Shown in pieces: positions 1-25,705 of a stretch of 32,000 nt of DNA; position 1 is the stretch's first letter; each line of letters starts with the position of its first letter. The position numbers and the translations under genes were made by a program. This stretch comes from Candidatus Nitrosomarinus catalinensis (lineage in GTDB: Archaea > Thermoproteota > Nitrososphaeria > Nitrososphaerales > Nitrosopumilaceae): positions 126,988 to 158,987 of the forward strand of contig NZ_CP021324.1 in NCBI RefSeq assembly GCF_002156965.1. Reading direction: 5' to 3'. Under the pieces are notes generated by a model. That model worked only from the letters and a program-made list of their open reading frames with translations. It was not told the DNA's origin and ran no database searches.

Positions 1-925
1 TCTAGGAGTTGGATTTGGTGATGAAGTTATTATTCCTACATTCACTTTTTCAGCAACTGCTGATGCTGTTGAATATTGTAATGCGAAGCCTATTTTTACA
101 GATGTTGATATGGATTCATTTAACATCCTTTCAAATGAAATTAAAAAGAAAATTACAAAAAGAACAAAAGCAATTGTAGTTGTTCATTATGGTGGTCAAT
201 CTTGTGATATGACTGAAATTTTAAAAATCAGTAAAGAAAAAAATATTCCTGTAGTTGAAGATTGTGCACATGCATTAGGTTCAACATATGGTAAAAAAAA
301 ATGTGGAACTATTGGAGATGTAGGATGTTTTAGTTTCTATCCTACAAAAATTATAACTACTGGAGAAGGAGGAATGGTCACTACTAATAATATTGAATTA
401 TTTAAAAAAATTAAATCTCTTCGTTCACATGGTATGAATATTTTACCTTCTGAACGTGAGAAAAAAGCTAGTTGGGAATATGATATAGTTGAATTAGGAT
501 TTAATTATAGATTAGATGAAATTCGCTCTGCACTAGGTTTTTCACAATTAAAAAGACTAAGTGAAATTAATAAGCACAGAAAAATGATTGCAAAAAAATA
601 TTCACAATTATTGAATAATGTTAAAGGAATTATTATACCTGTTACCAAAAATAATCGTAATCATATTTTTCACCTTTATTCCATTAAAGTAGACAAAACT
701 TATTCTTTAACAAGAGATGAATTATTTGAAAAATTATATTCAAAACATATAGGAACAAGTGTTCAGTATAAACCCCTTCATTTAATGACCTATTATAAAA
801 AAAAATACAATCTAAAGAAATCTAATTTTCCAAATGCTAATTTACTAGTAAAACAAATTCTTTGCTTACCAATTTATCCACAAATGACTGATAAAGAAAT
901 TAAATATGTGACATCTCAATTCTAA
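1..925 (+). CDS. DegT/DnrJ/EryC1/StrS-family PLP-dependent sugar aminotransferase (PseC/LegC-like), 5'-truncated by the window edge
   Basis: Frame 2 is open from nt 2 (LGVGFGDEVIIPTFTFSATADAVEYCNAKPIFTDVD...), so the Met at 110 is internal. Family motifs are present: EDCAHALGS, FSFYPTKIITTGEGG (PLP lysine context) and LRSHG. Confidence 0.85.
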   Translation, partial: LGVGFGDEVIIPTFTFSATADAVEYCNAKPIFTDVDMDSFNILSNEIKKKITKRTKAIVVVHYGGQSCDMTEILKISKEKNIPVVEDCAHALGSTYGKKKCGTIGDVGCFSFYPTKIITTGEGGMVTTNNIELFKKIKSLRSHGMNILPSEREKKASWEYDIVELGFNYRLDEIRSALGFSQLKRLSEINKHRKMIAKKYSQLLNNVKGIIIPVTKNNRNHIFHLYSIKVDKTYSLTRDELFEKLYSKHIGTSVQYKPLHLMTYYKKKYNLKKSNFPNANLLVKQILCLPIYPQMTDKEIKYVTSQF

Positions 926-1061
926 TTTATTAAAAGATCAAGCGTTATCTCTTTAAAAATTCCCAAAAATGATACTTGAATAAATAAAATATGTAGTAAA
1001 AAACTTGAAATGGAAAAGATTTTTTACTATAATTCAAATATTAGCAAAAATTATTTGTTTT

Positions 1062-2000
1062 ATGGCAAAGATTGGTTTTGTAGGATGTCACGAAATAAGT
1101 TGGTTTTGCTTGAAAAAAATATGCCAATTATCTAAAGAACATAAAGATGAGATGGTAGTTGTTTACAATTTAAATGAGGAAGAAAGCAAAAAACATTCAA
1201 GTTATTTCAATTTTGATTCATTAAAAAAAGAATTTGATTTTAATTTGAAATACATTTCAAATATTACAGATAGAGACAATTTAGAATTTTTGAAAAACTC
1301 TGGATTAGATGTACTTTTTATAATTGGATGGCATAAGATAGTACCTCAAGCAGTAATAGACACTGCAAAAATATGTTTAGGAATTCATTCTTCAGAACTC
1401 CCTAGAGATAGAGGTTCATCTCCAATAAATTGGCAAATTATAAAAGCTGAAGAGAAAGGTGGGGTTACTTTATTTCATTTAAGTGAAGGAGTAGATTCAG
1501 GACCAATTGTTGAAAGTACCAGTTATGATATTTCTGATGAAGACGATGTTAGAACAGTGTATTTTAAAGCAACAATCGCTTCAATCTCATTATTAGAAAA
1601 ACATTGGTCAAACATACACAATCTAGATGTTCCAAGTATCACACAAGATGAATCGCAAGCAACTTACAATGAAAGACGAAGGCCAAAAGATGGATTAATT
1701 GACTGGACTCAAAGTTCTAAGAAATGTTATGATTGGATTAGAGCAATAACGTTTCCATATCCTGGAGCATACACATACTGGAATAAGAAAAAAATCATAT
1801 TAATTTCGTCAAAAATAAGTAATATTCAAGGAACAAAACCTGGAGAAATTTTACAAGTGGGGGAGAAAATCATAGTTTCATCTGGAGATAATAGTTTAGA
1901 AATTTTATCATTACAAGTTGAAGGAGAGCCAATTTGCAATGCTAAATTATTTGTAGATTCATATAAAATACAAAGTGGGGATGTTTTTTCCAATTCATAA
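1062..2000 (+). CDS. Sugar-nucleotide/Fmt-like formyltransferase (N-terminal formyltransferase domain plus C-terminal Fmt-type domain)
   Basis: IHSSELPRDRGSSPINWQI matches the HxSLLPxxRG formyltransferase motif, and a downstream GVDSGPIV Asp motif is present. The track start at TTG 1005 adds 19 hydrophobic residues. ATG 1062 (MAKIGFVGCH) fits the family N-terminus better. Confidence 0.75.
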   Translation: MAKIGFVGCHEISWFCLKKICQLSKEHKDEMVVVYNLNEEESKKHSSYFNFDSLKKEFDFNLKYISNITDRDNLEFLKNSGLDVLFIIGWHKIVPQAVIDTAKICLGIHSSELPRDRGSSPINWQIIKAEEKGGVTLFHLSEGVDSGPIVESTSYDISDEDDVRTVYFKATIASISLLEKHWSNIHNLDVPSITQDESQATYNERRRPKDGLIDWTQSSKKCYDWIRAITFPYPGAYTYWNKKKIILISSKISNIQGTKPGEILQVGEKIIVSSGDNSLEILSLQVEGEPICNAKLFVDSYKIQSGDVFSNS

Positions 2001-2010
2001 ACAATTCAAA

Positions 2011-2673
2011 TTAGATTTTTTCAATATCTCGTAACACAATAAATGCTTCAGCATTCATTACACCTATAGAAGATCCCCAGAAATTTGAACGTGTAACAAT
2101 AGATTTATCAGAACGTGGATGTGGATATTCATGTATTTCATTTTTGTATATTTCAACAGCAGCAATTTTTTTCTTTAAAAATGGAGTTATTTCTACAAAT
2201 AAATTTGGTTTAAAACTTGCATTACCCCATTCAGTAGAAGATGGTGTTTCATAACAAATTAAGCGTTGAATGTTAGAATTTGGTGTAGGTCGTGCAGCTA
2301 TCAGAGTAATATCAAATATTTTTTTATGATCTTGATTTACATCACCCCAAAAATGAGTATAAATTGTATCGGGATTATATTCTTCAATTATTTTTTCTAA
2401 TTTTTTTGCTAAAACTAGAGATGATATAGTATCAAGTGTCTGATCACGATAATCTAAGAATTTAATTTTTTCAATTCCTAAAATAGTTGCTACTTTTTTT
2501 GCTTGATTTTTTCTCATTACAATGTTTTTTTTAGAATTACTTCTTGCCGATTCACCATCAGCAAAAATCACAACAAATACCTGATCACCGTTTTGAGAAT
2601 GTTTTACAATAGTACCGCCCAAACCTAAAGTTTCATCATCTGGATGTGCACAGACTACTAGAATTTTTTTCAT
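2011..2673 (-). CDS. PIG-L/LmbE-family N-acetyl-sugar deacetylase
   Basis: The N-terminal VCAHPDDETLGLGGT motif and the later VNQDHKK His/Asp motif are typical of the PIG-L family. The 220 aa size fits. Confidence 0.8.
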   Translation of the reverse strand: MKKILVVCAHPDDETLGLGGTIVKHSQNGDQVFVVIFADGESARSNSKKNIVMRKNQAKKVATILGIEKIKFLDYRDQTLDTISSLVLAKKLEKIIEEYNPDTIYTHFWGDVNQDHKKIFDITLIAARPTPNSNIQRLICYETPSSTEWGNASFKPNLFVEITPFLKKKIAAVEIYKNEIHEYPHPRSDKSIVTRSNFWGSSIGVMNAEAFIVLRDIEKI

Positions 2674-2696
2674 ATTCCTAGTTTAAGTTTCAATTG

Positions 2697-3728
2697 TTAA
2701 TAATTCTTTAAATCATCTTTTAAGTTGAGAATTTCTTTAGAAATTCGTTTTGCACCTAAACCATCAACAATTTCAAGTTTTTTTGTATAGTTAAGTTCCC
2801 CAGAAATTATAGAATCCAAGAAATTACAAAGTTTTTTATCTAAATTTTTGTCAGGTAATCCTAAATTCAAACCAACTTGCTTTTTCTCCCATTGTTGTGC
2901 AGTTTTTAATTGGTGTTTTACCTGACAAACTACAGCAAAGGGTACATGCATAGTAGCAAATTCATATGAAGTGATACCCCCAGAACATAAACCATATTCA
3001 CTTGATGCAATTTCTTGATACATGTTTTTTGTTTCTTTTATAATGTGAAGAGATTTAAAATTTTTTTTCAGATTATTTAGTTGTGATAATTTTGAACCAG
3101 GCCCTAAAATTATTTTAATTTTCAGTTTTTGTTGATATTTTTGTAAATTTTTTAAAAATATTCTTACAAGATTATGTTCATCAAAACCACCAAATGTAAC
3201 AAGTAGTTTGAATTTCTTTTTAGTAGGATCTTTTTTTAAAGAGAAATTTTTATGTAAAATTTGATAAGAAGGACCAGTAAAACATTTTGTTCCAAATTTA
3301 TTGTATAATATTTTATTTGAAAATCCTATATATCCATTAAAAATTAAATCAGCTGGAAAATCAATTTTTTCTAAATCCGAAATATAAATTACTTTAACAT
3401 AATTACGTAATTTTTTTACGTATCGTTTTTGTGTTTTATATTTATCAATAATTAAAATATTGATATTTTCTTTTTTAATTATATTGATAGTTTTTTGTAA
3501 ATCATCTTCAAAGTTTGAATTTTGTCTTAATGAAAAAATTTGTTTAAATCCTGAATTGATTATTGGTTTTTTTGCTTGACCATAATCTTCTACTAAAAAG
3601 AAAATATTGTTTTTACTTAATTCTTGTGCAAGGTTAATACATCTAAAAACATGTCCAAACCCTAATTGTTTATTTTTTGCTTGTCCTCCAGAGGTTCTAA
3701 ATAATATGTTTAGTTGTTGCTTTTTCAA
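2697..3728 (-). CDS. pseG: PseG-like UDP-sugar hydrolase / GT28-type glycosyltransferase fold protein
   Basis: The N-terminus ILFRTSGGQAKNKQLGFGHVFRCINLAQEL resembles the PseG R-x-D/G...G-x-GH-x-x-R-C motif. The C-terminal half has a GT-B nucleotide-binding look (CSGGITSYEF). It lies between a NeuB-like synthase and a deacetylase. Confidence 0.55.
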   Translation of the reverse strand: MKKQQLNILFRTSGGQAKNKQLGFGHVFRCINLAQELSKNNIFFLVEDYGQAKKPIINSGFKQIFSLRQNSNFEDDLQKTINIIKKENINILIIDKYKTQKRYVKKLRNYVKVIYISDLEKIDFPADLIFNGYIGFSNKILYNKFGTKCFTGPSYQILHKNFSLKKDPTKKKFKLLVTFGGFDEHNLVRIFLKNLQKYQQKLKIKIILGPGSKLSQLNNLKKNFKSLHIIKETKNMYQEIASSEYGLCSGGITSYEFATMHVPFAVVCQVKHQLKTAQQWEKKQVGLNLGLPDKNLDKKLCNFLDSIISGELNYTKKLEIVDGLGAKRISKEILNLKDDLKNY

Positions 3729-3749
3729 ATGTATTTAACAGAAATTACT

Positions 3750-4754
3750 CTATCTTATATCCTTCCATCTAATTGATTCGTCCATTGATATTTTTCGAGT
3801 TGTTTTTTTTCCTAAAATTTTATTAAAAAATTTTGGCTCTATTCCTGTGGCCGGACGTTTAATTGATAACATGTCAAGTGTTAATTTAACACCTTTTGGA
3901 ATTGGTATACTTGCAGTAACAGAACGTCGTGCCAGAGTTTTGGTGTTCATTTCTGATGGTTGACAGGATTTAATTCCACTACCAATCAATTTTTCAACAA
4001 TGCGTATGTTTGTTATTAGATTTTTTAATTCTTTAGGGTTGGAAGAGATTGAATGATCTGGTCCACTCATTTTTTTATCTAAAGTAAAATGTTTTTCAAT
4101 TAGTTTAGCACCTCTTGCTACTGCTGCAAATGAAACTAATTCGTTATCCCCATTATCAGAAAAACCAATTGGATATGGAAATTTTTTTTGTAGTTGATTA
4201 ATAGATGAAAGATTTACTTCCTCTGTAGGCGCAGGATATGAAGAAATACTATGCATTATCATGATTTTTTTATTTTTTGTAGATTTGATAGTTTTTAGCG
4301 CATCAGATATCTCATTCATATTTGACATTCCTGTGGAAATAATCATTGGTTTCATTTTGGATGATGCATATTTTATCAATGGTAAATTAGTTAAATCACC
4401 TGAAGCAATTTTAAATGCAGGCACATTAAGTTTAGAAAGTAAATCGACAGAATCATTGCTAAATGGAGTAGATAAAAAAATTATTTTTTTACTTTTAGCA
4501 TATTTTGATAACTCTGTAAATTCACTATCTATTAACTCAAGTTTTTTGAAAAGTTTAAAATAATCAGATTTTTTTGCAATAAAATTTTCTGTTTTAAAAG
4601 TTTGAAATTTTATTGCATCAGCACCACATTTTTGTGCAGTATTGATTAATTTTTTAGCAATATTGATATCGCCATTATGATTTAGACCAGCTTCGGCAAT
4701 AATAAAAACTGGAGAATCTTCACCGACAATTTTTTTTGAGATTCGAATTTTCAT
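3750..4754 (-). CDS. neuB: NeuB/PseI/LegI-family nonulosonic acid synthase with C-terminal SAF domain
   Basis: Motifs IIAEAGLNHNGD, GADAIKFQTF, STGMS and IEKHFTLD are present. A C-terminal SAF-like segment (RRSVTASIPIPKGVKLTLDMLSIKRP) follows. The usual G-x-SDH-T motif reads GFSDNG here. Confidence 0.85.
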   Translation of the reverse strand: MKIRISKKIVGEDSPVFIIAEAGLNHNGDINIAKKLINTAQKCGADAIKFQTFKTENFIAKKSDYFKLFKKLELIDSEFTELSKYAKSKKIIFLSTPFSNDSVDLLSKLNVPAFKIASGDLTNLPLIKYASSKMKPMIISTGMSNMNEISDALKTIKSTKNKKIMIMHSISSYPAPTEEVNLSSINQLQKKFPYPIGFSDNGDNELVSFAAVARGAKLIEKHFTLDKKMSGPDHSISSNPKELKNLITNIRIVEKLIGSGIKSCQPSEMNTKTLARRSVTASIPIPKGVKLTLDMLSIKRPATGIEPKFFNKILGKKTTRKISMDESIRWKDIR

Positions 4755-4838
4755 ATTTATGTTATCACTTGATGGTAATTTAATGATCCTTTATTAATTA
4801 AATACTGAAAAATAAAATAATCAAAAAATAGAGGAAAA
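4755..4838. promoter_or_regulatory. Divergent A/T-rich intergenic region (likely archaeal TATA/BRE promoters for the neuB-like operon and the GNAT/radical SAM/phosphonate genes)
   Basis: An 84-nt gap separates divergently oriented starts. It has several TATA-like boxes (TTTAATGA, TTATTAATTAAATA, AAATAAAATAA). No experimental support. Confidence 0.25.
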
Positions 4839-5258
4839 TTGTTGGGTATAAAACTTCGTCAAGCGGAAAAAAGAGATTGGGATTTAATTTTAGATCTTCG
4901 TAACGCATCATACAAGTTTTTTTACAAACAAAATGAACCAATTTCACATAATGAGCACTACAAATACATGGAAAATCAAATCAAAAACAATAACTTTCAT
5001 CAATGGATAATTACTCATAATAACGAGGATGCAGGATATGTAAGAATTTTGGATTCTGATGTAAGTATAATGGTAGATAAAGAATATCAAAATAAAGGAA
5101 TTGCATCAATTGCATTATTTTTACTGGAAAAAGAAGCAAAAACATTAGGAATTAAAAAATTAGTAGCTTTAGTTGCACCTGAGAATAAAAGTAGTCAAAA
5201 AATTTTTCAAAAAAATAATTATATTCTGAAATTGAATTTATTTGAAAAAGATCTTTAA
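4839..5258 (+). CDS. pseH: GNAT-family N-acetyltransferase, PseH-like
   Basis: IKLRQAEKRDWDLILDLRN... resembles the PseH N-terminus (LR..xxxDxxxxxxWRN). The GNAT acetyl-CoA loop YQNKGIAS (Q/R-x-x-G-x-A/G) is present. The start is TTG and no in-frame ATG lies nearby. Confidence 0.6.
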   Translation: MLGIKLRQAEKRDWDLILDLRNASYKFFYKQNEPISHNEHYKYMENQIKNNNFHQWIITHNNEDAGYVRILDSDVSIMVDKEYQNKGIASIALFLLEKEAKTLGIKKLVALVAPENKSSQKIFQKNNYILKLNLFEKDL

Positions 5259-5305
5259 TGAGTCAATATTCAAAAGAAATCACATATTTATTTATAATAT
5301 AACAA

Positions 5306-6364
5306 ATGAGATTCCATATGCAACCAAAGGCTAACATTTTTCAAGGATATACTGAGTTTCATAATGAACATTATTACAAATGGGAAAAAGCTCAATCTCA
5401 AAAGTATTTCGAATACAGAAAAAAATGGGTAGAAAATGCAGACAAACTAATTATTGAAAAATATCCGCTACATTTGGACATAGGAATTTCTAATGTTTGT
5501 AATCTAGAATGTACATTTTGTGCAAGAACAATTAAAGTTCAAAAAGATGATTGGAGGAAAGTCATGCATATGGATATCAATTTATTTAAAAAAATTATTG
5601 ATGAAGCTGTTGAATTAGGTACCTATTCAATTAATATGAATTTGTTATGTGAGCCTTTAATTCATCCTAAACTATTAGAAATGATCAAGTATGCAAAAGA
5701 AAAAGGAATTATTGATGTTCATTTTCATTCGCATGGAGGTTTGTTAAATGAAGAAAAAGCTAATTTATTATTAGATTCTGGATTGGACAAACTTTTCTTT
5801 TCAATTGATTCTCCTTATAAGGATAAATATAATAAAATTCGAGTTTTATCTGATTTTGATAATGTAATTGCAAATTTAAAAAGATTTAAAGAATTAAGAG
5901 ATGCAAGGGGACAACTTAATCCAATGATAAGAGTCAGTATGATCCAATTTCCAGACATTGAAGAACAAGAATTAATTGATGCAAAGAAATTCTTTTTGCA
6001 ATTTGCAGATGCAGTTGGATTTCAACAATACGTTGATCCACATAGAGAAATTGGTAAAGATAGAACTTATCCATCAGAATATAAATCAAAATTTGTTTGC
6101 CAACAGCCTTTTACACGCCTTTCAATAATTGAGGATGGTAGGGTATCACCTTGCTGTAATGATTATGATCAAGAACTGATAATTGGTGATGTAAGTAAAC
6201 AGAGTTTACAAGAAATTTGGGAATCAAATGAACTAGCTCAATTTAGAGATGTTATGAAAAAAGGGGATTTTTATAAGATTCATGCTTGTGCTAATTGTGA
6301 GATGGCAGTAAATGCAGACGAAGATAAACAAACTCCCATACAAAAATTGGAACCTACTATTTAG
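5306..6364 (+). CDS. Radical SAM protein with C-terminal SPASM-type auxiliary cluster domain
   Basis: CNLECTFC is the CxxxCxxC radical SAM motif. The C-terminal Cys-rich region (CQQPF...GRVSPCCNDY...LQEIWES...ACANCE) is typical of SPASM/twitch domains. Confidence 0.8.
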   Translation: MRFHMQPKANIFQGYTEFHNEHYYKWEKAQSQKYFEYRKKWVENADKLIIEKYPLHLDIGISNVCNLECTFCARTIKVQKDDWRKVMHMDINLFKKIIDEAVELGTYSINMNLLCEPLIHPKLLEMIKYAKEKGIIDVHFHSHGGLLNEEKANLLLDSGLDKLFFSIDSPYKDKYNKIRVLSDFDNVIANLKRFKELRDARGQLNPMIRVSMIQFPDIEEQELIDAKKFFLQFADAVGFQQYVDPHREIGKDRTYPSEYKSKFVCQQPFTRLSIIEDGRVSPCCNDYDQELIIGDVSKQSLQEIWESNELAQFRDVMKKGDFYKIHACANCEMAVNADEDKQTPIQKLEPTI

Positions 6365-6400
6365 TTTACAAAAAATTCATTGGTATGAAAAAGAGATAAA

Positions 6401-7726
6401 ATGACTAAACCCAATATTTTATTTATTTTAATTGATTCTATGCGAGCGGATAAATTTTTTCCTAATAAAACACATTCACCATTTCAAAACTTAATTGATC
6501 AAGGTGCGTATTTTAAACAAAATATTTCCTCTTCTGACTACACACAAACTGGTATTGGGAGTATTTTTACTGGTTGTTATCCCTTTGATGCAGGATTAAA
6601 AGCACAAAATTATCAAAAATTATATTCTAAACAAACTAACTATATTGAATTTTTAAAACAAAATGGTTATCATGCTTATACAACAATGGCAGAATCAGTT
6701 TCGGAGTTAGGTTTTTCAAAATTATTTGATAATGCAGATCAATCATATCCAAATTCATTACGTCTATTTGATGGATTAGGAAAAAAAATTATTAGTTTTT
6801 TAAAATCAATAAGCTTAGAAAATCCCTGGTTTTATTTTATTCATTTAGAAGATCTTCATTTACCTGTAAGTTTACCATCAAAATATGAACATGTAAAATA
6901 TTCTGAAAGATATGATATTGCAATATCAGAAATTTATTCATGGATAAATAAAATGATTCAGTTAGTAGATCTTAAAAATACTCTAATTGTTATAACATCT
7001 GATCATGGTGACTATATCCCTTCAATCGATGACACCAAAAATTCAAATCAAAATATCTTGAGAACTAAATCTATAATTAGAAATAAAATCCCTTCACCCA
7101 TTTATGATAAAATTTCAATAACAAAACGTACTCTCACCAAGAATATTCAAAAACATAAAACTAAATCCAATTATGAAAAACGTGCAATTGACAGTAGAAC
7201 TGGAAAAAATCGTCATCTTTACGATGAAATAATTAGAACTCCATTACTTTTTTTTGGTTATGATATCAAACCAAAAAAAATTCTTGAACAACAAGTAAGG
7301 AGTATTGATATTTTTCCTACTATTTTAGATGTTATTGGTATTGATAAAATTAATTTCAATATTCATGGCCAAAGTCTTAAACCGTTATTAAACAATAAAA
7401 TCTTGCCAGAATTTCCAGTTTATCTAGAAAGTACTGTTTTTTCGACAGTACAAAAAAATGCTATTCCTCATTTGGGAATTCGAACTCCACAATTCAAATA
7501 TTTTAGAAGAGTAGATAATCCTAAAAAAAGTGTTCATCTTTATGATTTAATTAATGATCCATTTGAGGAGAATAATATTTTTTCAAAAAATGAAAAACTT
7601 ATTTTTGAAATGGAGAAAGAAATTTTAAAAATCAAAAAAAATAATTTTATGCCTAACCTAGAAGATCTTGATGATTTAGAAACAAAAAAAGTTGAAGATG
7701 AGTTAAGAAAACTTGGATATATTTAA
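6401..7726 (+). CDS. Alkaline-phosphatase-superfamily 'sulfatase-like' hydrolase/transferase with Thr at the nucleophile position
   Basis: ILFILIDSMRAD (metal Asp), ITSDHGD and the sulfatase-type spacing are present. The segment YTQTGIGSIFTGCYP aligns with sulfatase C-T-P-S-R-x-x-x-x-T-G-R-Y-P but places Thr where Cys/Ser (formylglycine) would be. No C/S-x-P-x-R motif exists. Confidence 0.8.
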   Translation: MTKPNILFILIDSMRADKFFPNKTHSPFQNLIDQGAYFKQNISSSDYTQTGIGSIFTGCYPFDAGLKAQNYQKLYSKQTNYIEFLKQNGYHAYTTMAESVSELGFSKLFDNADQSYPNSLRLFDGLGKKIISFLKSISLENPWFYFIHLEDLHLPVSLPSKYEHVKYSERYDIAISEIYSWINKMIQLVDLKNTLIVITSDHGDYIPSIDDTKNSNQNILRTKSIIRNKIPSPIYDKISITKRTLTKNIQKHKTKSNYEKRAIDSRTGKNRHLYDEIIRTPLLFFGYDIKPKKILEQQVRSIDIFPTILDVIGIDKINFNIHGQSLKPLLNNKILPEFPVYLESTVFSTVQKNAIPHLGIRTPQFKYFRRVDNPKKSVHLYDLINDPFEENNIFSKNEKLIFEMEKEILKIKKNNFMPNLEDLDDLETKKVEDELRKLGYI

Positions 7727-7797
7727 AAATTTTAATTAAATTAGATTTTTAATTATCAACATAACTATTTTTAAGCCCTAATCATCTTTTCTTATTA

Positions 7798-9159
7798 TTG
7801 GAAAATTCTTCAAATAATTTAAAAAGATCAGGATATAATTTTCTTAGTTTACTTAACGATATTAAACGTCGACCTGAGGATGCAGCTAATGAATTAGGTG
7901 TAGAAATTGAAGAAATTAATGCAATAATTGAAGGTAGAAAAGAAATTTCTTTTGAATTAATTTTAAAAGCAATTAGTATATGGCCAGTTAATCCAAGAGA
8001 TTTTTTTCTGATTAACGATGATTGTCCTAATGGAGTCAAAATAATGAGATCCAAAGAATCTATTCAATCTTCTAGGATTATGGATAGAGGTGGATTTCCA
8101 TACTATGAATACCGAGATACTGCTATGAGTAGTGTTTCATTATTTAGACCAGAATGGATTGAAGAACTTTGTTATGTTGACAACAATGATGCTGAAAACA
8201 CAAAAGTTCAATGGAATAAAGGACATTTCATGCATCAATTTACCTATTTTATCGGTGATGTAAATTATTATTATATTGGAGAAGATAATCAAAAAAAAGT
8301 TTTTGTCACAAAGACTGGAGATTCTGTATATGGAACTCCATTCAGACCTCATACTTTTACAACTAGAATAAATGCTGAAAAAAATGGATTAATTTTAGCA
8401 CTAACATATGGAAATAAAATTGCTGCAGATACACAGCAAGAATTATCTGCTATTGGTCCAGAATTAGGCATTCAATATCACCTAGATTTTGAAACTATAG
8501 AAAAAGCATTTTCATCCATACTTAAATTTAGTATTGATGCTGCAAGTATTTCAATTGAAGAATTATCAAATAGAACCGGTATTGAAGAATCAAGAATTAA
8601 TGAATTTTTAATTGGAACTTTCCCTGTCCCAGGATTTGATACAATCCAAAATCTTGCTAAAGCATTATCTATCAACTCTCGTGATTTATTACCTCCAGAT
8701 ATTATTGAAGATAAAATTTTACCAAAAACATTTACTGATTCTAAACGGTGGTATTACCCATCAGATTCTAAAGCTTATGAAATGATAGAATTATCTCAAT
8801 CTCGCAACCTTCCATTTTCTAAATCTTTAGAAATTAATATTTTAGAAGAATCAAATGATATTCTGGATCTTAAAGTTGGATTACATCAATGGCTTTATAA
8901 TATTGGCAAATCCCCTATTCGCTTGAATTGGAAATTAGGTGAAAAAATTTATCAAGAAAATATTTTACCAAATGATTCAGTTTACATTAAACCATTTGTA
9001 GAACATAGTATGAGAGGATCTGGAAAATTAATGGTTCTTAGAATTGGTGGCCGTATGACAGGAGATGCTCAAAGAGAATTTTCTAATCTTAGTAAACATG
9101 ATGCCCATAGAGCTATTAATGAAACTCAAATGTGGTTTGATGCTAAAACTGAGCATTAA
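7798..9159 (+). CDS. mpnS: MpnS/HEPD-family non-heme Fe(II) 2-hydroxyethylphosphonate dioxygenase (methylphosphonate synthase homologue, bi-cupin with two HTH-like subdomains)
   Basis: Long stretches match what I recall of Nitrosopumilus maritimus MpnS: NDIKRRPEDAANELGV, IWPVNPRDF, SSRIMDRGGFPYYEYRDTAMS, FRPEWIEELC, QWNKGHFMHQFTYFIG, LILALTYG, LKVGLHQWLYNIG, YIKPFVEH and LRIGGRMTGDAQRE. A 2-His-1-Gln triad is present (H143, Q147, H185). The start is TTG. The gene sits beside ppm/ppd/Fe-ADH. Confidence 0.85.
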   Translation: MENSSNNLKRSGYNFLSLLNDIKRRPEDAANELGVEIEEINAIIEGRKEISFELILKAISIWPVNPRDFFLINDDCPNGVKIMRSKESIQSSRIMDRGGFPYYEYRDTAMSSVSLFRPEWIEELCYVDNNDAENTKVQWNKGHFMHQFTYFIGDVNYYYIGEDNQKKVFVTKTGDSVYGTPFRPHTFTTRINAEKNGLILALTYGNKIAADTQQELSAIGPELGIQYHLDFETIEKAFSSILKFSIDAASISIEELSNRTGIEESRINEFLIGTFPVPGFDTIQNLAKALSINSRDLLPPDIIEDKILPKTFTDSKRWYYPSDSKAYEMIELSQSRNLPFSKSLEINILEESNDILDLKVGLHQWLYNIGKSPIRLNWKLGEKIYQENILPNDSVYIKPFVEHSMRGSGKLMVLRIGGRMTGDAQREFSNLSKHDAHRAINETQMWFDAKTEH

Positions 9160-9200
9160 GAATAACATTTAAGATAGAAAAATAAAAAATATTTGAAATT

Positions 9201-10304
9201 TTGAAAAAAAATCTAATAATTATTACAATTGATGGAGCTAGATTTGATAGGGCTAAACATTCTAAAATTTATAATAAAAACAACTCTGTTTTCTTGTCAC
9301 AATGTATTACTTATGGCCCACACACAATTGCAGCAATGCATGCAATTTTTAGTGGTAGTTATGGTAGTAGAACAGGAACAAATAGTTATTGGTCCACTTA
9401 TAAATTTAAAAAACAAGAATTTCATACTTTAACTGAATATTTGAGTGAAGAAAATTATTTTACTCATGCAGATATACATAGTGAAATTGTAATTCCTAAA
9501 CAAGGATTTGATATTTTTAATGTATATGATGAAAATGAAAATTTAACATTACGGCATTCAAAATTATTGGAAAAATTTTCTTCAGAGTTTAAATCTAAAA
9601 ATTTTTTCTTGTATTTACATTATGATAAAATTCATTCAGGCATTACAGAATCTGTTTTAAAAAAATTTGATAATTTTAGTAGTGAATATTTTAAAAACCA
9701 AGAAAATAATAAAAAAAATTATGATAAATTATTTTATGAATCTGAATTATATCTAGAACAAATATTTAATCAATTAGAATCTTTAAATCTTTTAAAAAAT
9801 TCCCTTGTACTTGTTCTTTCTGATCATGGGATTAGTGTTGGTGAAAAATTTGGTGAACGAGCTTATGGTGCATTTTGTTATGATTACACATTAAAGACAT
9901 TTTGTTATGTTTATAATTCTGAATTAAATTCTCGAGAAGTTCCAAATCAAGTAAGAACAGTTGATTTCATGCCTACAATCTTAGAATTACTACAAATTCC
10001 TTTAAAATCAAATTTTCAAATTCTTGATGGTGAGTCTTTGATTCCTCTCATTAAGGGTGAAAAATATGAAGAAAAAATTGCATTTTCTGAAACTGGAAAT
10101 CCATTAAAAGAAAATAAACCACCAAAAGAACCAAACACTAAATCTGTTCGTACTTCTGAATGGAAATTAATTTACAATACCTATGATAATACTAAAGAAT
10201 TATACAATTTACAATCTGATCCTGATGAGAAAGAAAATTTAGTTGGGACGAATTTGGAAATTGAAGAAATATTGTGGTTAGAATTACAAAAACATATGGT
10301 ATAA
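9201..10304 (+). CDS. Second alkaline-phosphatase-superfamily 'sulfatase-like' hydrolase/transferase with Thr nucleophile
   Basis: IIITIDGARFD and LSDHGIS are present. GPHTIAAMHAIFSGSYG aligns Thr with the sulfatase formylglycine position. The start is TTG. Confidence 0.75.
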   Translation: MKKNLIIITIDGARFDRAKHSKIYNKNNSVFLSQCITYGPHTIAAMHAIFSGSYGSRTGTNSYWSTYKFKKQEFHTLTEYLSEENYFTHADIHSEIVIPKQGFDIFNVYDENENLTLRHSKLLEKFSSEFKSKNFFLYLHYDKIHSGITESVLKKFDNFSSEYFKNQENNKKNYDKLFYESELYLEQIFNQLESLNLLKNSLVLVLSDHGISVGEKFGERAYGAFCYDYTLKTFCYVYNSELNSREVPNQVRTVDFMPTILELLQIPLKSNFQILDGESLIPLIKGEKYEEKIAFSETGNPLKENKPPKEPNTKSVRTSEWKLIYNTYDNTKELYNLQSDPDEKENLVGTNLEIEEILWLELQKHMV

Positions 10305-11039: not shown

Positions 11040-11045
11040 GATTTT

Positions 11046-11594
11046 CTATATTGATTTTATTACTCTGTCTCTAATACTTTTAGGATTCCATGAAACCCTT
11101 TTACTTCTTTCTTTACTTGTAGATATTTTTATCAAAAGAAATATTGGCCCTTGTAATTTTTTAATATCTTTTAAAACTGATATTAATTTAGTTTTTGTTT
11201 GAATTACAAAAATTTTATAATTTGCAGTCTTTGCAATTTTTGCTAAATTTATTTGAGATGAATTTGTTGGTTGACTTCCTGTAGATTCATGACTATTGTT
11301 ATCAAATACTATATGTACCAAATTTTTTGGTTTTAAACTCCCAATTGTAACTAAAGATCCCAAATTCATTAAAATATTTCCATCACCATCAAAAACAAAA
11401 ATTTGTTTTTTAGGATTTTTTAATGCAATACCTAATCCAATTGAAGATGCTAATCCCATTGAACCAATCATGTAAAAATTTGATTCTTTATCATTTGTTT
11501 CAAATAAATCTCTACTCATAAACCCATTTGCTGACACAATGGGATTTTTACCAATGAATTTTCCAATTATTGTTACTGCTTCTTTTCTAATCAT
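11046..11594 (-). CDS. ppd: Phosphonopyruvate decarboxylase, beta subunit (TPP diphosphate-binding domain)
   Basis: GDGNILMNLGSLVTIGSLKPKNLVHIVFDNN is the GDG-X(24-27)-NN thiamine-diphosphate motif. It overlaps the alpha subunit by 8 nt (CATGATTAG). Confidence 0.85.
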   Translation of the reverse strand: MIRKEAVTIIGKFIGKNPIVSANGFMSRDLFETNDKESNFYMIGSMGLASSIGLGIALKNPKKQIFVFDGDGNILMNLGSLVTIGSLKPKNLVHIVFDNNSHESTGSQPTNSSQINLAKIAKTANYKIFVIQTKTKLISVLKDIKKLQGPIFLLIKISTSKERSKRVSWNPKSIRDRVIKSI

Positions 11595-12075
11595 GAAACA
11601 TTCTCCTGATTATGAGAGCACATGGCTTTTTTTCTTTTAATTGTTTTAAAGCCCAATCACACTTAACTTTCCAGTTTTTTTCTGTCAAAACTTGTGATTT
11701 TAATCCAATAATTTTTAATAATTCAGGTTGAATTTTACCAATTTTCAAATGTTCTGGAGCATCATCTGCAAGATATCCTCTCCATCCAATTAAAAAAATT
11801 AATGGAATTTCATAAAGTTGTATGAGGGAAGTGATAGTACTAATAGAATTAGCAAAACCTGCATTTTGCATAAAAACTAAAGAGTTACTTTTTGAAAGAC
11901 TCATTCCAGCTGCAATTCCTATTGCTTCTTCTTCTCTAGTTGCAATTATTGAATTATTATTTTTTAAACATTCATCAATAAAATGTTTTAATGTAGAATC
12001 GGGAACACCAACAAAATTTTCAATTTTTTTATTTTTTAAATAATGAAATATTTTTCGTTGTTCTTCTTCATTCAA
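11587..12075 (-). CDS. ppd: Phosphonopyruvate decarboxylase, alpha subunit (TPP pyrimidine-binding domain)
   Basis: GVPDSTLKHF...REEEAIGIAAG...MQNAGFANS...IPLIFLIGWRG...DAPEH resembles the ComD/Ppd N-domain. The TTG start overlaps the ppm stop (TTGA). Confidence 0.85.
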   Translation of the reverse strand: MNEEEQRKIFHYLKNKKIENFVGVPDSTLKHFIDECLKNNNSIIATREEEAIGIAAGMSLSKSNSLVFMQNAGFANSISTITSLIQLYEIPLIFLIGWRGYLADDAPEHLKIGKIQPELLKIIGLKSQVLTEKNWKVKCDWALKQLKEKKPCALIIRRMFHD

Positions 12076-12971
12076 TTTATGTAACCCATTTTTTTCAAAT
12101 CCCGCTCAATGTCTGATTCTTGTTTTTTAATTTCATACATTTCTTGAAGATGAAAAATTTTATCCATTGTTGTCATATTGGTTTCAACTTCACTAAGACT
12201 TTTTGCAGATGACAATTGTTTTAGATGTTCCATCATTGCCCAATGTGCTACTCTTAATGATTGATTTGCATAAATTACCATAGAGATTTTATTTTTTTGA
12301 AGTTCATCTATTGTAACAGTGGGATAAGTTGTAGGAATAGCAATTATAGGAATTTTTCCATCCCAAGAATTACAAAATTCAAAGATCTCTTTTGGAGAAT
12401 TTTTCTTAGAATGAATTAGTATTGCATCTGCACCTGCATTTTCATAAGCTGTTGCACGCTTTAATGCCTCCTTAATTCCTTGACCAGATATCAATGCTTC
12501 AATTCTAGCAATAATCATGAAGTTAGGATTATTTTTTGCTGTTTTTCCTGCAATTATTTTTGCAACAAAATCTTTTTCAGAAAGTAACTCTTGCTTACCA
12601 TCTTCAAGTAAGCTATTTTGTTTTGGAAAAATTTTATCTTCTATACATATTGCTGCAATTCCTGCTGATTCATATTTTTTCACTAAATGACTTACGTTGC
12701 TTGGACCACCAAAACCTGTATCACAATCTGCAATTATTGGTATTGAACATGCATCAGCCATACTGGATGCTGTAGAAAGAAATTCAGTCATAGTCAAAAT
12801 ACTTGCATCAGGTAATGCGTGAGTTGCAGAAATCGCAAAACTTCCTGCCCAAACAGCATCAAAATCACTTAATTCTACTAATTTTGCAGACATTGCATCA
12901 AAAGCGCCTGCAACCTTCAAAATTGGTTTCTCCTTTAATTTCGTGCGTAAAATATTTGCTCCTTCATTCAT
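12072..12971 (-). CDS. ppm: Phosphoenolpyruvate phosphomutase (PEP mutase)
   Basis: It has the isocitrate-lyase/PEP-mutase fold. CIEDKIFPKQNSL contains the EDK-X5-NS signature that separates true PEP mutases from other family members. ADCDTGFGG is also present. Confidence 0.92.
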   Translation of the reverse strand: MNEGANILRTKLKEKPILKVAGAFDAMSAKLVELSDFDAVWAGSFAISATHALPDASILTMTEFLSTASSMADACSIPIIADCDTGFGGPSNVSHLVKKYESAGIAAICIEDKIFPKQNSLLEDGKQELLSEKDFVAKIIAGKTAKNNPNFMIIARIEALISGQGIKEALKRATAYENAGADAILIHSKKNSPKEIFEFCNSWDGKIPIIAIPTTYPTVTIDELQKNKISMVIYANQSLRVAHWAMMEHLKQLSSAKSLSEVETNMTTMDKIFHLQEMYEIKKQESDIERDLKKMGYIN

Positions 12972-13034
12972 GTGAATCGTACTAATGTTACTGATGATTT
13001 AATCTATAATAACAGATCTTTTTAACACAATTAT
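12972..13034. promoter_or_regulatory. Divergent promoter region between the ppm operon (-) and the Fe-ADH gene (+)
   Basis: A 63-nt A/T-rich gap separates the two starts. The TATA-like AATCTATAATAA (about 13001-13012) lies about 25-30 nt upstream of the GTG start at 13035. TTTAAT/ATTAAA on the other strand lies upstream of ppm. Confidence 0.3.
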
Positions 13035-13979
13035 GTGTGGAGTATAAAACAACCTTCAAAAATAATTTTTGGAGAGAACTCGGTACGAGAGTTTACATTT
13101 CCTGAGAAATGTTTAATCATTACTTCTAAAGGGGCAAAATCTAGGGGTTGGTTAGATTATTCCGGATTAAATAATCAATTAATTTTTGAGAATATTGAAT
13201 CAAATCCTTCTATAGAAACAACTAAAGAAATAATTTCAAAATTTCAAAATTCTGATTTTACTCATGTTGTTGGAATGGGTGGGGGTAGTTCAATGGATGT
13301 AGCTAAATACTGTGCATTTAAAATGAATAAATTAAAAATTATGATACCGACCACTTTTGGCAGTGGAAGTGAAGTGACTAGAATTTCGGTTCTAAAAGTT
13401 GATGGTAAGAAAAGAAGTTTTCATGACGATAAATTATTTGCAGATATTGCAATAATTGATTCTCATTTCTTAGAAAACACTCCTGATTTAATACGGAAAA
13501 ATTCATTTGTTGATGCATGTGCTCAATGTACTGAAGCATATGATAGTAAAAATTCTAATTATTATACAAAATTTCTTTGTGAAAAAGCATTTGATCTTTT
13601 GGAGAGTGGATTAAATTCAAATAATTCTAAAAAAATTGTATTGGGATCTTTGATTTCTGGATTAGGATTTGGTAATTCATCTACAACTTTGGGACATGCT
13701 TTATCTTATGTTTATTCTAATGAAGGTTATTCTCACGGTCATGCATTAGCTTTTACTACTTTAATTTCTCATAAATTCAATAATTCTAAATTCTTTAAAA
13801 GATTTACCTCATTAATCCAAAAATTAAATTTTGAAAGAATTCATCTAAATGAAAATTCTGATTTTGCATCTGAAATAATTTATCAAGATAGAAAGCATTT
13901 AGATAACAATCCGAAATCCATATCAAAATCAGATATCTCTAATCTATTACAAGAAATTGAAAAAATTAATTTAATTTAA
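13035..13979 (+). CDS. Group III iron-containing alcohol dehydrogenase (phosphonoacetaldehyde reductase candidate, giving 2-hydroxyethylphosphonate)
   Basis: GMGGGSSMDVAKY is the GGGSxxDxAK motif. His-rich metal motifs are present (GHALSYVYSNEGYSHGHALAF). The start is GTG. Context is divergent from ppm-ppd. Confidence 0.8.
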   Translation: MWSIKQPSKIIFGENSVREFTFPEKCLIITSKGAKSRGWLDYSGLNNQLIFENIESNPSIETTKEIISKFQNSDFTHVVGMGGGSSMDVAKYCAFKMNKLKIMIPTTFGSGSEVTRISVLKVDGKKRSFHDDKLFADIAIIDSHFLENTPDLIRKNSFVDACAQCTEAYDSKNSNYYTKFLCEKAFDLLESGLNSNNSKKIVLGSLISGLGFGNSSTTLGHALSYVYSNEGYSHGHALAFTTLISHKFNNSKFFKRFTSLIQKLNFERIHLNENSDFASEIIYQDRKHLDNNPKSISKSDISNLLQEIEKINLI

Positions 13980-13989
13980 TAAAAATTTT

Positions 13990-18199: not shown

Positions 18200-18238
18200 T
18201 ACAAAGTTTTTATTGTTTTTCAAATTTTAGTATAAAAT

Positions 18239-19069: not shown

Positions 19070-19073
19070 TAAA

Positions 19074-19901: not shown

Positions 19902-19902
19902 A

Positions 19903-20703: not shown

Positions 20704-20704
20704 A

Positions 20705-22364: not shown

Positions 22365-22406
22365 TTGAAATGGGTTTATTTCTATCTAATTTTTATACTA
22401 ATTATG

Positions 22407-25411: not shown

Positions 25412-25459
25412 AATATTACAAAAATTTTAGTCATAATTAAATTTCATTATTGCACAAAA

Positions 25460-25621: not shown

Positions 25622-25705
25622 AAATTAATGGTATTTGTTAATAAAACTTTGAAATAATGTAATTACCTTACTAACTTTTTTATCGCTGTAATTCATTGAA
25701 AAATT

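What the first reader, a model, noticed from the sequence alone, without database searches (positions are those of the whole stretch)
7798..9159. MpnS homologue carries HEPD-type second-sphere residues (Tyr/Gly instead of Phe/Ile), so the product may not be methylphosphonate
The ORF has the unusual 2-His-1-Gln iron triad: GHFMHQF gives H143 (8224-8226) and Q147 (8236-8238), and PFRPHTF gives H185 (8350-8352). The spacing is identical to N. maritimus MpnS H148/Q152/H190, a constant offset of 5 with no gaps needed.

As I recall Born et al. 2017 (Science), two Gln-adjacent residues decide the outcome. In MpnS they are Phe162 and Ile184. In Streptomyces albus HEPD they are Tyr163 and Gly184, and the Y163F/G184I swap converts HEPD into an MPn synthase.

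In this ORF the gaplessly aligned positions are Tyr157 (TAT, 8266-8268, in FIGDVNYYY) and Gly179 (GGA, 8332-8334, in GDSVYGTPF). That is the HEPD signature in an otherwise MpnS-like thaumarchaeal protein. The enzyme may therefore make hydroxymethylphosphonate plus formate, or a mixture. If so, not every thaumarchaeal 'mpnS' cluster is a methane-precursor source.
Basis: partly seen in the sequence, partly recalled or inferred. Interest (0 to 1): 0.9.

Follow-up and report, generated by a model that had tools for sequence, protein, structure and literature searches.

The report
Archaeal MpnS-like enzyme with HEPD signature
A marine ammonia-oxidising archaeon carries a gene that databases call methylphosphonate synthase, the enzyme that makes the precursor of oceanic methane. 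The two residues known to decide the product are in the state of the sister enzyme that makes hydroxymethylphosphonate, so this widespread clade may not supply a methane precursor.

Summary
ORF 7798-9159 (453 aa) has the H143/Q147/H185 iron triad. Tyr157 and Gly179 align without gaps to Phe162/Ile184 of N. maritimus MPnS (6B9S) and to Tyr163/Gly184 of S. albus HEPD (6B9R).

It is not a one-off.
- All 120 nearest database homologues (60-97% identity) lack Phe/Ile. 114 are Tyr/Gly, and several are named "methylphosphonate synthase" by JGI.
- They form a clade with 99% bootstrap support, nested among Phe/Ile sequences. It is 49% identical to its nearest MPnS-type relatives (54.5% for the query against NmMPnS) and 35% to classical class II HEPDs.
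- In a scan of all 453 columns, only Tyr157, Val177 and Gly179 separate the clade from Phe/Ile enzymes and also match the HEPD consensus.
- These residues persist through synonymous codon changes. A clade-specific Arg183 is unexplained.

The host is Nitrosopumilus-like, and the gene cluster (PepM, Ppd, Pdh, nucleotidyltransferase, sulfatase-like genes) matches Phe/Ile clusters. In an arbitrary metagenome sample, 21 of 117 such genes were this type.

My best reading, at about 0.55, is that the enzyme makes hydroxymethylphosphonate plus formate. The product cannot be tested in silico. I found no open-access paper reporting this clade.

The parts
7798..9159 (+). MPnS/HEPD-family non-haem Fe(II) oxygenase, 453 aa (HTH-like domain + cupin, repeated twice). 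Member of the Tyr/Val/Gly/Arg clade.
   Evidence: 6b9s E = 2.7e-163; 6b9r E = 4.4e-82; HTH_26/HTH_19; AF2 model, best Foldseek hits 6b9t/6b9s at 54-55% id
8224..8226 (+). His143, iron ligand (= MPnS His148)
   Evidence: invariant in 38/38 clade sequences
8236..8238 (+). Gln147, iron ligand of the 2-His-1-Gln triad (= MPnS Gln152)
8350..8352 (+). His185, iron ligand (= MPnS His190)
8266..8268 (+). Tyr157 (TAT), marker site 1. Phe162 in MPnS, Tyr163 in SaHEPD.
   Evidence: Tyr in 96% of the clade, 0% of Phe/Ile sequences, 100% of class II HEPDs. Codons TAT and TAC both used.
8326..8328 (+). Val177 (GTA), a third site that converges on the class II HEPD state. Met/Asn/Cys in Phe/Ile enzymes.
   Evidence: Val in 96% of the clade, 2% of Phe/Ile, 76% of class II HEPD; GTA/GTT/GTG
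8332..8334 (+). Gly179 (GGA), marker site 2. Ile184 in MPnS, Gly184 in SaHEPD.
   Evidence: Gly in 100% of the clade, 0% of Phe/Ile, 100% of class II HEPD. All four Gly codons used.
8344..8346 (+). Arg183 (AGA), clade-specific residue two positions before the His185 ligand. Role unknown.
   Evidence: Arg in 100% of the clade; Val/Thr/Ile in Phe/Ile enzymes; Ala in class II HEPD; 21/21 metagenome contigs; AGA/AGG/CGT/CGA; in a loop between strands 176-179 and 185-190 of the AF2 model
12072..12971 (-). PEP mutase (PepM), first step of phosphonate synthesis
   Evidence: PF13714, 3.7e-57; EDKIFPKQNS motif at residues 111-120
11046..12075 (-). Phosphonopyruvate decarboxylase as two ORFs: alpha 11587-12075 (TPP_enzyme_N) and beta 11046-11594 (TPP_enzyme_C)
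   Evidence: 60-83% identical to the equivalents in other AOA clusters
13035..13979 (+). Fe-dependent alcohol dehydrogenase (phosphonoacetaldehyde reductase, Pdh/PhpC type) that would make 2-HEP
   Evidence: PF00465, PF25137
10305..11039 (-). Nucleotidyltransferase, presumed to activate the phosphonate. The most divergent gene of the cluster.
   Evidence: NTP_transf_3, NTP_transferase; only 41-51% identical in other clusters
9201..10304 (+). Sulfatase-like (alkaline-phosphatase superfamily) protein directly downstream. No formylglycine motif.
   Evidence: about 60% identical to the gene in the same position in Phe/Ile loci; motif absent
6401..7726 (+). Second sulfatase-like protein directly upstream. 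No formylglycine motif.
5306..6364 (+). Radical SAM/SPASM protein
110..5258 (.). Nonulosonic-acid/glycan genes: DegT aminotransferase, formyltransferase, PIG-L deacetylase, GT28-like glycosyltransferase, NeuB, GNAT
   Evidence: same order in L060

Best explanation
**What it is.** ORF 7798-9159 encodes an intact, catalytically competent Fe(II)/O2 oxygenase of the MPnS/HEPD family. It lies in the cell-surface phosphonate cluster of a Nitrosopumilus-like ammonia-oxidising archaeon.

**Pathway (inferred from gene content).**
- PepM, the split Ppd and the Fe-alcohol dehydrogenase next to it make 2-hydroxyethylphosphonate (2-HEP).
- This enzyme cleaves the C1-C2 bond of 2-HEP.
- The nucleotidyltransferase and the two sulfatase-like proteins then attach the C1 phosphonate to a glycan.

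**Clade (shown here).** The enzyme belongs to a distinct, well-supported clade that branches among Phe/Ile (MPnS-type) enzymes. In this clade the two second-sphere residues next to the Gln ligand, and a third neighbouring site, have changed by point substitution to the class II HEPD state (Tyr157, Val177, Gly179). They have been held there by selection.

**Predicted chemistry (inferred).** Gly179 opens space beside Gln147 and Tyr157 offers it a hydrogen bond. As recalled for SaHEPD, the Gln ligand is then mobile and formate is not held in position to donate its hydrogen atom. The methylphosphonate radical would therefore rebound with the iron-bound hydroxyl. The predicted main products are hydroxymethylphosphonate plus formate, not methylphosphonate plus CO2.
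For: - **Marker residues.** Verified by a gapless alignment to both solved enzymes.
- **Experimentally characterised comparators.** Tyr/Gly enzymes make HMP: SaHEPD is deposited as hydroxyethylphosphonate dioxygenase (6b9r), and AlpG (Tyr158/Gly179) was assayed in vitro. The Phe/Ile enzyme NmMPnS makes MPn.
- **Field usage.** The field uses these residues as the classifier.
- **Family-wide covariation.** The two sites covary: 97 HQFIH against 27 HQYGH among 153 aligned sequences (150 50%-identity representatives plus the query and two references), with few mixed states.
- **Clade-wide conservation.** 114 of the 120 nearest homologues are Tyr/Gly and none is Phe/Ile. The clade has 99% bootstrap support. 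It is separated from classical class II HEPDs by splits with 73-89% support, with Phe/Ile lineages in between.
- **No gene conversion.** Outside the three sites, every region of the protein is closer to the nearest Phe/Ile group than to class II HEPD. In cupin 1 the figures are 64% against 50%.
- **Column scan.** Only Tyr157, Val177 and Gly179 both distinguish the clade from Phe/Ile enzymes and match the HEPD consensus.
- **Purifying selection.** Synonymous codon turnover occurs at all of these sites across 24 loci.
- **Competence.** Ligands and the surrounding conserved residues are intact.
- **Substrate supply.** PepM with its EDKx5NS motif, Ppd and Pdh are adjacent, so 2-HEP is the expected substrate.
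Against: - No member of this clade has been assayed.
- The published engineering result ran from HEPD to MPnS. I could not check whether the reverse substitutions in an MPnS scaffold give HMP, because Born 2017 is not held.
- The overall scaffold is MPnS-like (54.5% identity).
- The gene neighbourhood cannot be told apart from that of Phe/Ile clusters. No accessory gene family is specific to Tyr/Gly loci beyond a pentapeptide/GSDH gene seen only in close relatives (4 loci), and there are no HMP-processing enzymes.
- The invariant, clade-specific Arg183 near the His ligand is not part of the known model. It could hold Gln147 or formate in an MPnS-like geometry.
- A subclade has partly returned to Phe157/Asn177 while keeping Gly179.
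Confidence: 0.55

Rival explanations
1. It is still a methylphosphonate synthase. In this scaffold other residues, for example Arg183, keep Gln147 and formate in the MPnS geometry, so Tyr/Gly does not change the product.
For: - It is closest to NmMPnS in sequence and fold.
- It has the same cluster architecture as Phe/Ile AOA clusters, including an approximately 60% identical downstream sulfatase-like gene.
- JGI names clade members methylphosphonate synthase.
- Arg183 is a clade-specific addition with unknown effect.
Against: - All 59 Phe/Ile sequences of the tree set and 93 F/(I,V) metagenome contigs keep those residues, while this clade has fixed Tyr and Gly.
- A neutral double change at exactly the two product-determining sites, plus convergence at Val177, held through 44% sequence divergence and synonymous turnover, is hard to explain without a functional shift.
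- Tyr/Gly enzymes that have been assayed make HMP.
Confidence: 0.25
2. It is a dual-product enzyme that releases both methylphosphonate and hydroxymethylphosphonate. An MPnS scaffold with HEPD second-sphere residues partitions the common late radical intermediate both ways.
For: - The sequence is hybrid: an MPnS-like backbone with HEPD-like markers.
- Natural mixed states exist in the family: Phe/Gly inside this clade, and Tyr/Ile in SAR202.
- From memory, the HEPD E176H variant (PDB 4yar is listed) makes both products.
Against: There is no direct evidence. Strict clade-wide conservation of all three sites suggests an optimised outcome rather than an intermediate one.
Confidence: 0.13
3. It performs a different reaction or uses a different substrate. 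Arg183 and the other clade-specific residues (Glu122, Ile303, Met445) would create a third outcome on 2-HEP or recognise another phosphonate.
For: Arg183 is invariant in the clade and essentially absent from both known functional classes.
Against: - The 2-HEP-forming genes are adjacent.
- Residues conserved across MPnS and HEPD are all retained.
- No extra enzymes accompany the Tyr/Gly type.
Confidence: 0.05
4. It is a chance resemblance, a sequencing error or a decaying gene.
For: None found.
Against: - The ORF is full length.
- Independent contigs 96-97% identical carry the same residues and, where the flanks were read (L060), the same gene order.
- 24 loci show the same four-residue signature with synonymous variation.
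Confidence: 0.01

Closest known systems
Nitrosopumilus maritimus methylphosphonate synthase (MPnS; PDB 6B9S/6B9T)
   Same: - Best sequence and fold match: E = 2.7e-163, 54.5% identity, Foldseek E about 1e-56.
- Same 2-His-1-Gln triad with the same spacing.
- Same host group (marine AOA) and the same cluster: PepM, split Ppd, Fe-ADH, nucleotidyltransferase, sulfatase-like genes.
   Different: - Tyr157/Gly179 replace Phe162/Ile184.
- Val177 replaces Met182.
- Arg183 replaces Thr188.
- It falls in a separate clade with 99% bootstrap support.
Streptomyces albus HEPD (class II HEPD; PDB 6B9R)
   Same: The 2-His-1-Gln triad, Tyr and Gly at the two marker sites, and Val at the third site.
   Different: - Only about 35% identical.
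- It lies on the far side of splits with 73-89% bootstrap support.
- Ala, not Arg, sits two residues before the His ligand.
- It is an actinobacterial natural-product enzyme, not part of an archaeal glycan-decoration cluster.
AlpG of the argolaphos pathway (class II HEPD with Tyr158/Gly179; shown to convert 2-HEP to HMP, PMC8976061)
   Same: It has the Tyr-Gly motif at almost the same residue numbers. It gives experimental proof that a Tyr/Gly enzyme makes HMP.
   Different: In Streptomyces, HMP is processed further by a dehydrogenase and an aminotransferase (AlpK/AlpL). No such genes are present here. I did not have the AlpG sequence for a direct comparison.
PhpD / class I HEPD (Streptomyces viridochromogenes; PDB 3G7D)
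   Same: Same overall fold and the same substrate, 2-HEP (Foldseek E about 7e-22).
   Different: It has a 2-His-1-Glu triad. By the Lockwood table, the Glu lies at the position where this protein has Gly179. Sequence identity is 16-18%.
HppE (fosfomycin epoxidase; PDB 1ZZ6, 5U55)
   Same: An HTH + cupin module and a distant homologue (E = 7.8e-08).
   Different: It has a single HTH-cupin unit, a different substrate and a different reaction.

Membership tests
MPnS/HEPD/HppE superfamily (HTH-like domain + cupin, non-haem iron) | Significant full-length similarity to solved members, and the same fold | tested here: met
   6b9s 2.7e-163; 6b9r 4.4e-82; HppE 7.8e-08; HTH_26/HTH_19; AF2 mean pLDDT 70; top Foldseek hits 6b9t/6b9s, then 6b9r, 3g7d, HppE
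Methylphosphonate synthase (EC 1.13.11.73), markers of Born 2017 as tabulated by Lockwood 2022 | 2-His-1-Gln iron triad (H148, Q152, H190) | tested here: met
   H143/Q147/H185, gapless alignment
Methylphosphonate synthase (EC 1.13.11.73) | Phe at position 162 | tested here: not met
   Tyr157; criterion
Methylphosphonate synthase (EC 1.13.11.73) | Ile (or Val) at position 184 | tested here: not met
   Gly179; criterion
Methylphosphonate synthase (EC 1.13.11.73) | Branches with characterised MPnS rather than with HEPD | tested here: met
   Nested among Phe/Ile sequences inside a 113-leaf group (bootstrap 73) that excludes all but 2 of the tree's other Tyr/Gly sequences, SaHEPD included. The immediate sister relations are weakly supported, at 8-45%. 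Identity by region is given.
Methylphosphonate synthase (EC 1.13.11.73) | Converts 2-HEP to methylphosphonate + CO2 | not testable with these tools
   Needs an enzyme assay
Class II HEPD (EC 1.13.11.72) | 2-His-1-Gln triad with Tyr at 162/163 and Gly at 184 | tested here: met
   The motif is called diagnostic in PMC8976061 and is used in Lockwood Table S2.
Class II HEPD (EC 1.13.11.72) | Common descent with characterised class II HEPDs (groups with SaHEPD) | tested here: not met
   35% identity. The protein is separated from them by Phe/Ile lineages. The Tyr/Gly state is independently derived or re-derived.
Class II HEPD (EC 1.13.11.72) | Converts 2-HEP to hydroxymethylphosphonate + formate | not testable with these tools
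   Needs an enzyme assay
Class I HEPD (PhpD type) | 2-His-1-Glu triad (Ala at 152, Glu at 184 in the Lockwood numbering) | tested here: not met
   Gln147 and Gly179; 16-18% identity to 3g7d

The most novel reading that the evidence does not exclude
A globally distributed clade of marine ammonia-oxidising archaea has re-evolved HEPD chemistry from an MPnS-type ancestor. It did so by changing exactly the residues that were engineered in the laboratory (Phe to Tyr, Ile to Gly), plus Met to Val, and by adding a clade-specific Arg. These archaea would decorate their surface glycans with hydroxymethylphosphonate rather than methylphosphonate. A sizeable share of the 'thaumarchaeal mpnS' signal in ocean surveys would then not be a methane precursor. 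That share was about 18% of such genes in an arbitrary sample of 117 contigs. AOA would also be a source of the hydroxymethylphosphonate found in marine high-molecular-weight DOM.
Probability: 0.45. Interest if true: 0.85.

Novelty: new variant of a known kind. Interest (0 to 1): 0.72.

Why it matters
**Link to marine methane.** Methylphosphonate made by marine archaea is the leading explanation for methane supersaturation in oxygenated seawater. Surveys count thaumarchaeal mpnS genes as MPn production potential.
- Qin 2020 reports new deep-water mpnS lineages and reads them as a methane source.
- Lockwood 2022 reports mpnS rising to 7.7% of the mesopelagic community and attributes the rise to Thaumarchaeota.

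**What this clade changes.**
- By the field's own residue criteria the clade would be hepD, not mpnS. JGI nevertheless names its members methylphosphonate synthase.
- 37-59% of read-length windows of this protein pass a 60% identity cut-off against Phe/Ile references.
- If the prediction holds, MPn and methane potential is overestimated.
- It would also point to an archaeal source for the hydroxymethylphosphonate reported in marine HMW DOM, which Prochlorococcus oxidises to formate rather than methane.

**Enzymology.** The clade is a natural replicate of the engineered product switch. It offers an unexplained extra residue, Arg183, to test.

Tried and rejected
- **Born et al. 2017.** It could not be read by DOI, PMC id or PubMed id. 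Peck 2015 is not held either. The mutational conversion and the Gln-mobility mechanism therefore rest on memory.
- **Literature searches.** Searches for residue names and for '2-His-1-Gln' found nothing useful. A search combining HEPD terms with AOA terms was too loose. The HEPD + Nitrosopumilus search returned only three papers, and none notes a Tyr/Gly archaeal clade.
- **Lockwood gene sheets.** The per-gene sheets are not held as text.
- **NCBIfam.** It has no model matching this protein.
- **Exact look-up.** The window's protein is not on record.
- **GTDB genome scan.** Only one Tyr/Gly genome turned up, SAG AC-665-F20 at 61% identity. No cultured carrier was identified.
- **Neighbourhood comparison.** Comparing 24 Tyr/Gly loci with 110 Phe/Ile loci found no accessory gene family specific to the Tyr/Gly type beyond a pentapeptide/GSDH gene seen only in close relatives (4 loci). 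Context neither supports nor excludes a product change.
- **Gene conversion from a class II HEPD.** Rejected, because cupin 1 outside the three sites is 64% identical to Phe/Ile neighbours and 50% to HEPD.
- **Promoter and terminator scan.** Results were at chance level, and the scan is not suited to archaea.
- **AF2 model.** Confidence is moderate (mean pLDDT 70) and no coordinates are returned, so the orientation of Arg183 could not be judged.
- **Rooting with class I HEPD.** Not attempted, because it is too distant (E about 1e-6).
Full report
**1.

ORF 7798-9159 (+) is an intact 453-codon reading frame with a TTG start.
- His143 CAT 8224-8226
- Gln147 CAA 8236-8238
- Tyr157 TAT 8266-8268
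- Gly179 GGA 8332-8334
- His185 CAT 8350-8352

A phmmer search of PDB sequences aligns the ORF to N. maritimus methylphosphonate synthase (6b9s, E = 2.7e-163). The offset is a constant five residues, with no gap across the N-terminal cupin. The ORF also aligns to S. albus HEPD (6b9r, E = 4.4e-82). Counting along those alignments gives H148/Q152/F162/I184/H190 for MPnS and H149/Q153/Y163/G184/H190 for SaHEPD.

**2. What the literature says about these residues**

I could not obtain Born et al. 2017. Two open papers show how the field uses its result.
- Lockwood et al. 2022 verified mpnS by H148/Q152/F162/I-or-V184/H190 and hepD by H148/A-or-Q152/I-or-Y162/E-or-G184/H190 (Suppl. Table S2).
- A 2022 Nature Communications paper calls the Tyr-Gly motif 'diagnostic of class II HEPD'. 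It shows that purified AlpG (Tyr158/Gly179) converts 2-HEP to hydroxymethylphosphonate.

By these published criteria the ORF would be filed as hepD, not mpnS. The statement that SaHEPD Y163F/G184I becomes an MPnS rests on my recollection of the Born abstract.

**3. It is a clade, not an exception**

- **Nearest homologues.** Of the 120 nearest homologues among 5.8 billion proteins (60-97% identity), 114 are H-Q-Y-G-H, 6 are H-Q-F-G-H and one is H-Q-F-Q-H. None has Phe/Ile. JGI names several of them 'methylphosphonate synthase'. NCBI lists one as a hypothetical protein of a Thaumarchaeota MAG.
- **Family-wide covariation.** Among 153 aligned sequences (150 representatives at 50% identity, plus the query and two PDB references), the two sites covary strongly: 97 HQFIH against 27 HQYGH, with few mixed states.
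- **Tree.** A neighbour-joining tree with 100 bootstraps puts the query in a 49-sequence clade (47 Tyr/Gly, 2 Phe/Gly; bootstrap 99). The clade is nested among Phe/Ile sequences, including NmMPnS. Classical class II HEPDs, including SaHEPD, lie outside a 113-leaf group (bootstrap 73) and a 131-leaf group (bootstrap 89). The immediate sister relationships are poorly supported (8-45%). Any rooting still needs at least two independent Phe/Ile-to-Tyr/Gly switches.
- **A second case.** A small Tyr/Gly group (P0171, P0174) is also embedded among Phe/Ile sequences.

**4. The switch is confined to the active-site strand and is under selection**

I scanned every column for residues at least 90% conserved in the clade and at most 5% frequent in the Phe/Ile group. 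Seven positions passed: Glu122, Tyr157, Val177, Gly179, Arg183, Ile303 and Met445.

Only Tyr157, Val177 and Gly179 also match the class II HEPD consensus, at 100%, 76% and 100%.

With those three sites removed, every region of the protein is closer to the neighbouring Phe/Ile group than to class II HEPDs:

| Region | Identity to nearest Phe/Ile group | Identity to class II HEPD |
|---|---|---|
| Whole protein | 49% | 35% |
| Cupin 1 | 64% | 50% |

The state therefore arose by point substitution, not by gene conversion. Within the clade, identity falls to 56%. Across 24 loci, Tyr is encoded by TAT and TAC, Val by GTA/GTT/GTG, Gly by all four codons, and Arg183 by AGA/AGG/CGT/CGA. That pattern is what purifying selection on the amino acids produces.

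Arg183 lies two residues before the His185 ligand. It is invariant in the clade and essentially absent elsewhere: Val/Thr/Ile in Phe/Ile enzymes and Ala in class II HEPDs. The known model does not explain it. The AF2 model (mean pLDDT 70) places it in a loop between strands 176-179 and 185-190 and does not settle its orientation.

**5. Host and context**

Core genes flanking the cluster (17153-18880 and 24764-30460) are 85-97% identical at protein level to those of Nitrosopumilus sp. genomes (L033, L014). The window has 27.4% G+C. The host is a Nitrosopumilus-like AOA.

The neighbours are as follows:
- PepM, with the EDKx5NS motif
- a split phosphonopyruvate decarboxylase
- an Fe-alcohol dehydrogenase
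- a nucleotidyltransferase
- two sulfatase-like proteins that lack the formylglycine motif
- a radical SAM/SPASM protein
- a nonulosonic-acid/glycan gene set

A 97%-identical homologue on a JGI contig has the same gene order.

In a scan of one genome per GTDB species, 59 loci encode relatives. All named Nitrosopumilus, Nitrosotenuis, Nitrosarchaeum and Nitrosopelagicus loci are Phe/Ile. Only the Marine Group I single-cell genome AC-665-F20 is Tyr/Gly.

I compared neighbourhoods of 24 Tyr/Gly loci with 110 Phe/Ile loci. Apart from a pentapeptide/GSDH gene seen only in close relatives (4 loci), no accessory gene family was specific to either type. Clusters are mosaic. One Phe/Ile contig (L086) has PepM, Ppd and Pdh 72-83% identical to the window's, but oxygenase, nucleotidyltransferase and sulfatase-like genes only 43-58% identical.

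**6. Most likely mechanism**

Shown here:
- The enzyme is intact and retains all ligands and family-invariant residues.
- It sits next to the genes that make 2-HEP.
- It carries the class II HEPD second-sphere configuration on an MPnS-derived backbone.

Inferred:
- It binds 2-HEP and O2 at the 2-His-1-Gln iron and cleaves C1-C2 to formate and a methylphosphonate radical, as in both known enzymes.
- With Gly179 leaving room and Tyr157 able to hydrogen-bond Gln147, the Gln ligand is not locked and formate is not held for hydrogen-atom donation. The radical then recombines with the iron-bound hydroxyl to give hydroxymethylphosphonate plus formate.
- The product is then activated and transferred to a surface glycan by the adjacent nucleotidyltransferase and alkaline-phosphatase-superfamily proteins.

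I put this at about 0.55. The rivals are:
- an unchanged MPnS, about 0.25
- a dual-product enzyme, about 0.13
- a different reaction shaped by Arg183, about 0.05

The main weaknesses are three. No clade member has been assayed. Only the HEPD-to-MPnS direction is known to me as tested. The gene context is the same as for Phe/Ile clusters.

**7. Comparison with known families**

The protein works like a member of the MPnS/HEPD family and belongs to that superfamily.
- It fails two of the residue criteria that define MPnS.
- It meets all residue criteria for class II HEPD but does not share that group's descent.

It is best described as a new variant: an archaeal, MPnS-derived lineage with the HEPD signature.

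**8. Novelty and importance**

In the open-access library I found no paper noting Tyr/Gly in a thaumarchaeal clade.
- Lockwood 2022 reports marine hepD only from Pelagibacterales and one Prochlorococcus.
- Qin 2020 treats the new deep-water thaumarchaeal mpnS lineages as MPn and methane sources.

I cannot exclude that the Born 2017 supplement or closed-access reviews mention it.

Of read-length windows of this protein, 37-59% pass a 60% identity threshold against Phe/Ile references, and 16% pass against classical class II HEPDs. Read-recruitment surveys would therefore tend to count it as mpnS. This is an inference about their pipelines, not a test.

Hydroxymethylphosphonate is reported in marine HMW DOM and is oxidised by Prochlorococcus to formate, not methane. 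An archaeal source would matter for both the phosphorus and the methane budgets. One enzyme assay would decide the question.

Noticed in passing
window 8344-8346 (Arg183): An Arg two residues before the His185 iron ligand is invariant in the Tyr/Gly clade. It appears in 49/49 tree sequences and 24/24 loci and is encoded by both Arg codon families. It is essentially absent from Phe/Ile MPnS-type enzymes (Val/Thr/Ile) and from class II HEPDs (Ala). The published product-control model does not account for it.
   Followed up: partly
proteins P0061, P0066, P0078, P0082, P0086, P0089 (relatives, 60-62% identical): A subclade inside the Tyr/Gly clade has Phe157/Asn177/Gly179/Arg183. Two of the three sites have returned to MPnS-like residues while Gly is kept. 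It may be an evolutionary intermediate or another product variant.
   Followed up: no
loci L028, L030, L035 (SAR202/Chloroflexota genomes); L078, L119, L152 (metagenome contigs): A third signature, Tyr157/Cys177/Ile179 (mixed Tyr + Ile), recurs in SAR202-type sequences. Its product is not predictable from the two-residue rule.
   Followed up: no
window 6401-7726 and 9201-10304; 5306-6364: Both 'sulfatase' ORFs lack the Cys/Ser-x-Pro/Ala-x-Arg formylglycine motif, so they are probably not true sulfatases. They may be phosphonate or phosphodiester transferases. A radical SAM/SPASM ORF of the kind that matures sulfatases nevertheless sits next to them.
   Followed up: partly
window 5300-13980 compared with L033 and L086: The phosphonate cluster is mobile and mosaic. 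In the closely related Nitrosopumilus sp. RIS_SAG_40 (L033), a Phe/Ile-type cluster sits between homologues of window genes 24764-25411 and 25910-26851, a different insertion point. In L086 the 2-HEP-forming genes are 72-83% identical to the window's, but the oxygenase, nucleotidyltransferase and sulfatase-like genes are only 43-58% identical.
   Followed up: partly
window 19059-23705: A second variable block holds two xylose-isomerase-like TIM barrels, TatD, UbiA and a type I phosphodiesterase. Among the loci fetched, its relatives occur only in two groundwater contigs (L002, L004). L004 is titled Patescibacteria but shows the same matches at near-identical percentages as the Thaumarchaeota contig L002, so it is probably misbinned.
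   Followed up: no
window 13990-15984 (-): A 664-aa protein combines a glucose/sorbosone dehydrogenase beta-propeller with pentapeptide repeats. It lies directly beside the cluster and was found only next to close relatives of this Tyr/Gly cluster (4 loci, against 0 Phe/Ile loci).
   Followed up: no
window 7798-9159, database annotation: NCBIfam has no model matching this family, and its best hits are spurious HTH matches. NCBI lists a clade member as a hypothetical protein, while JGI's KO-based naming calls clade members methylphosphonate synthase. Neither annotation looks at the marker residues.
   Followed up: yes
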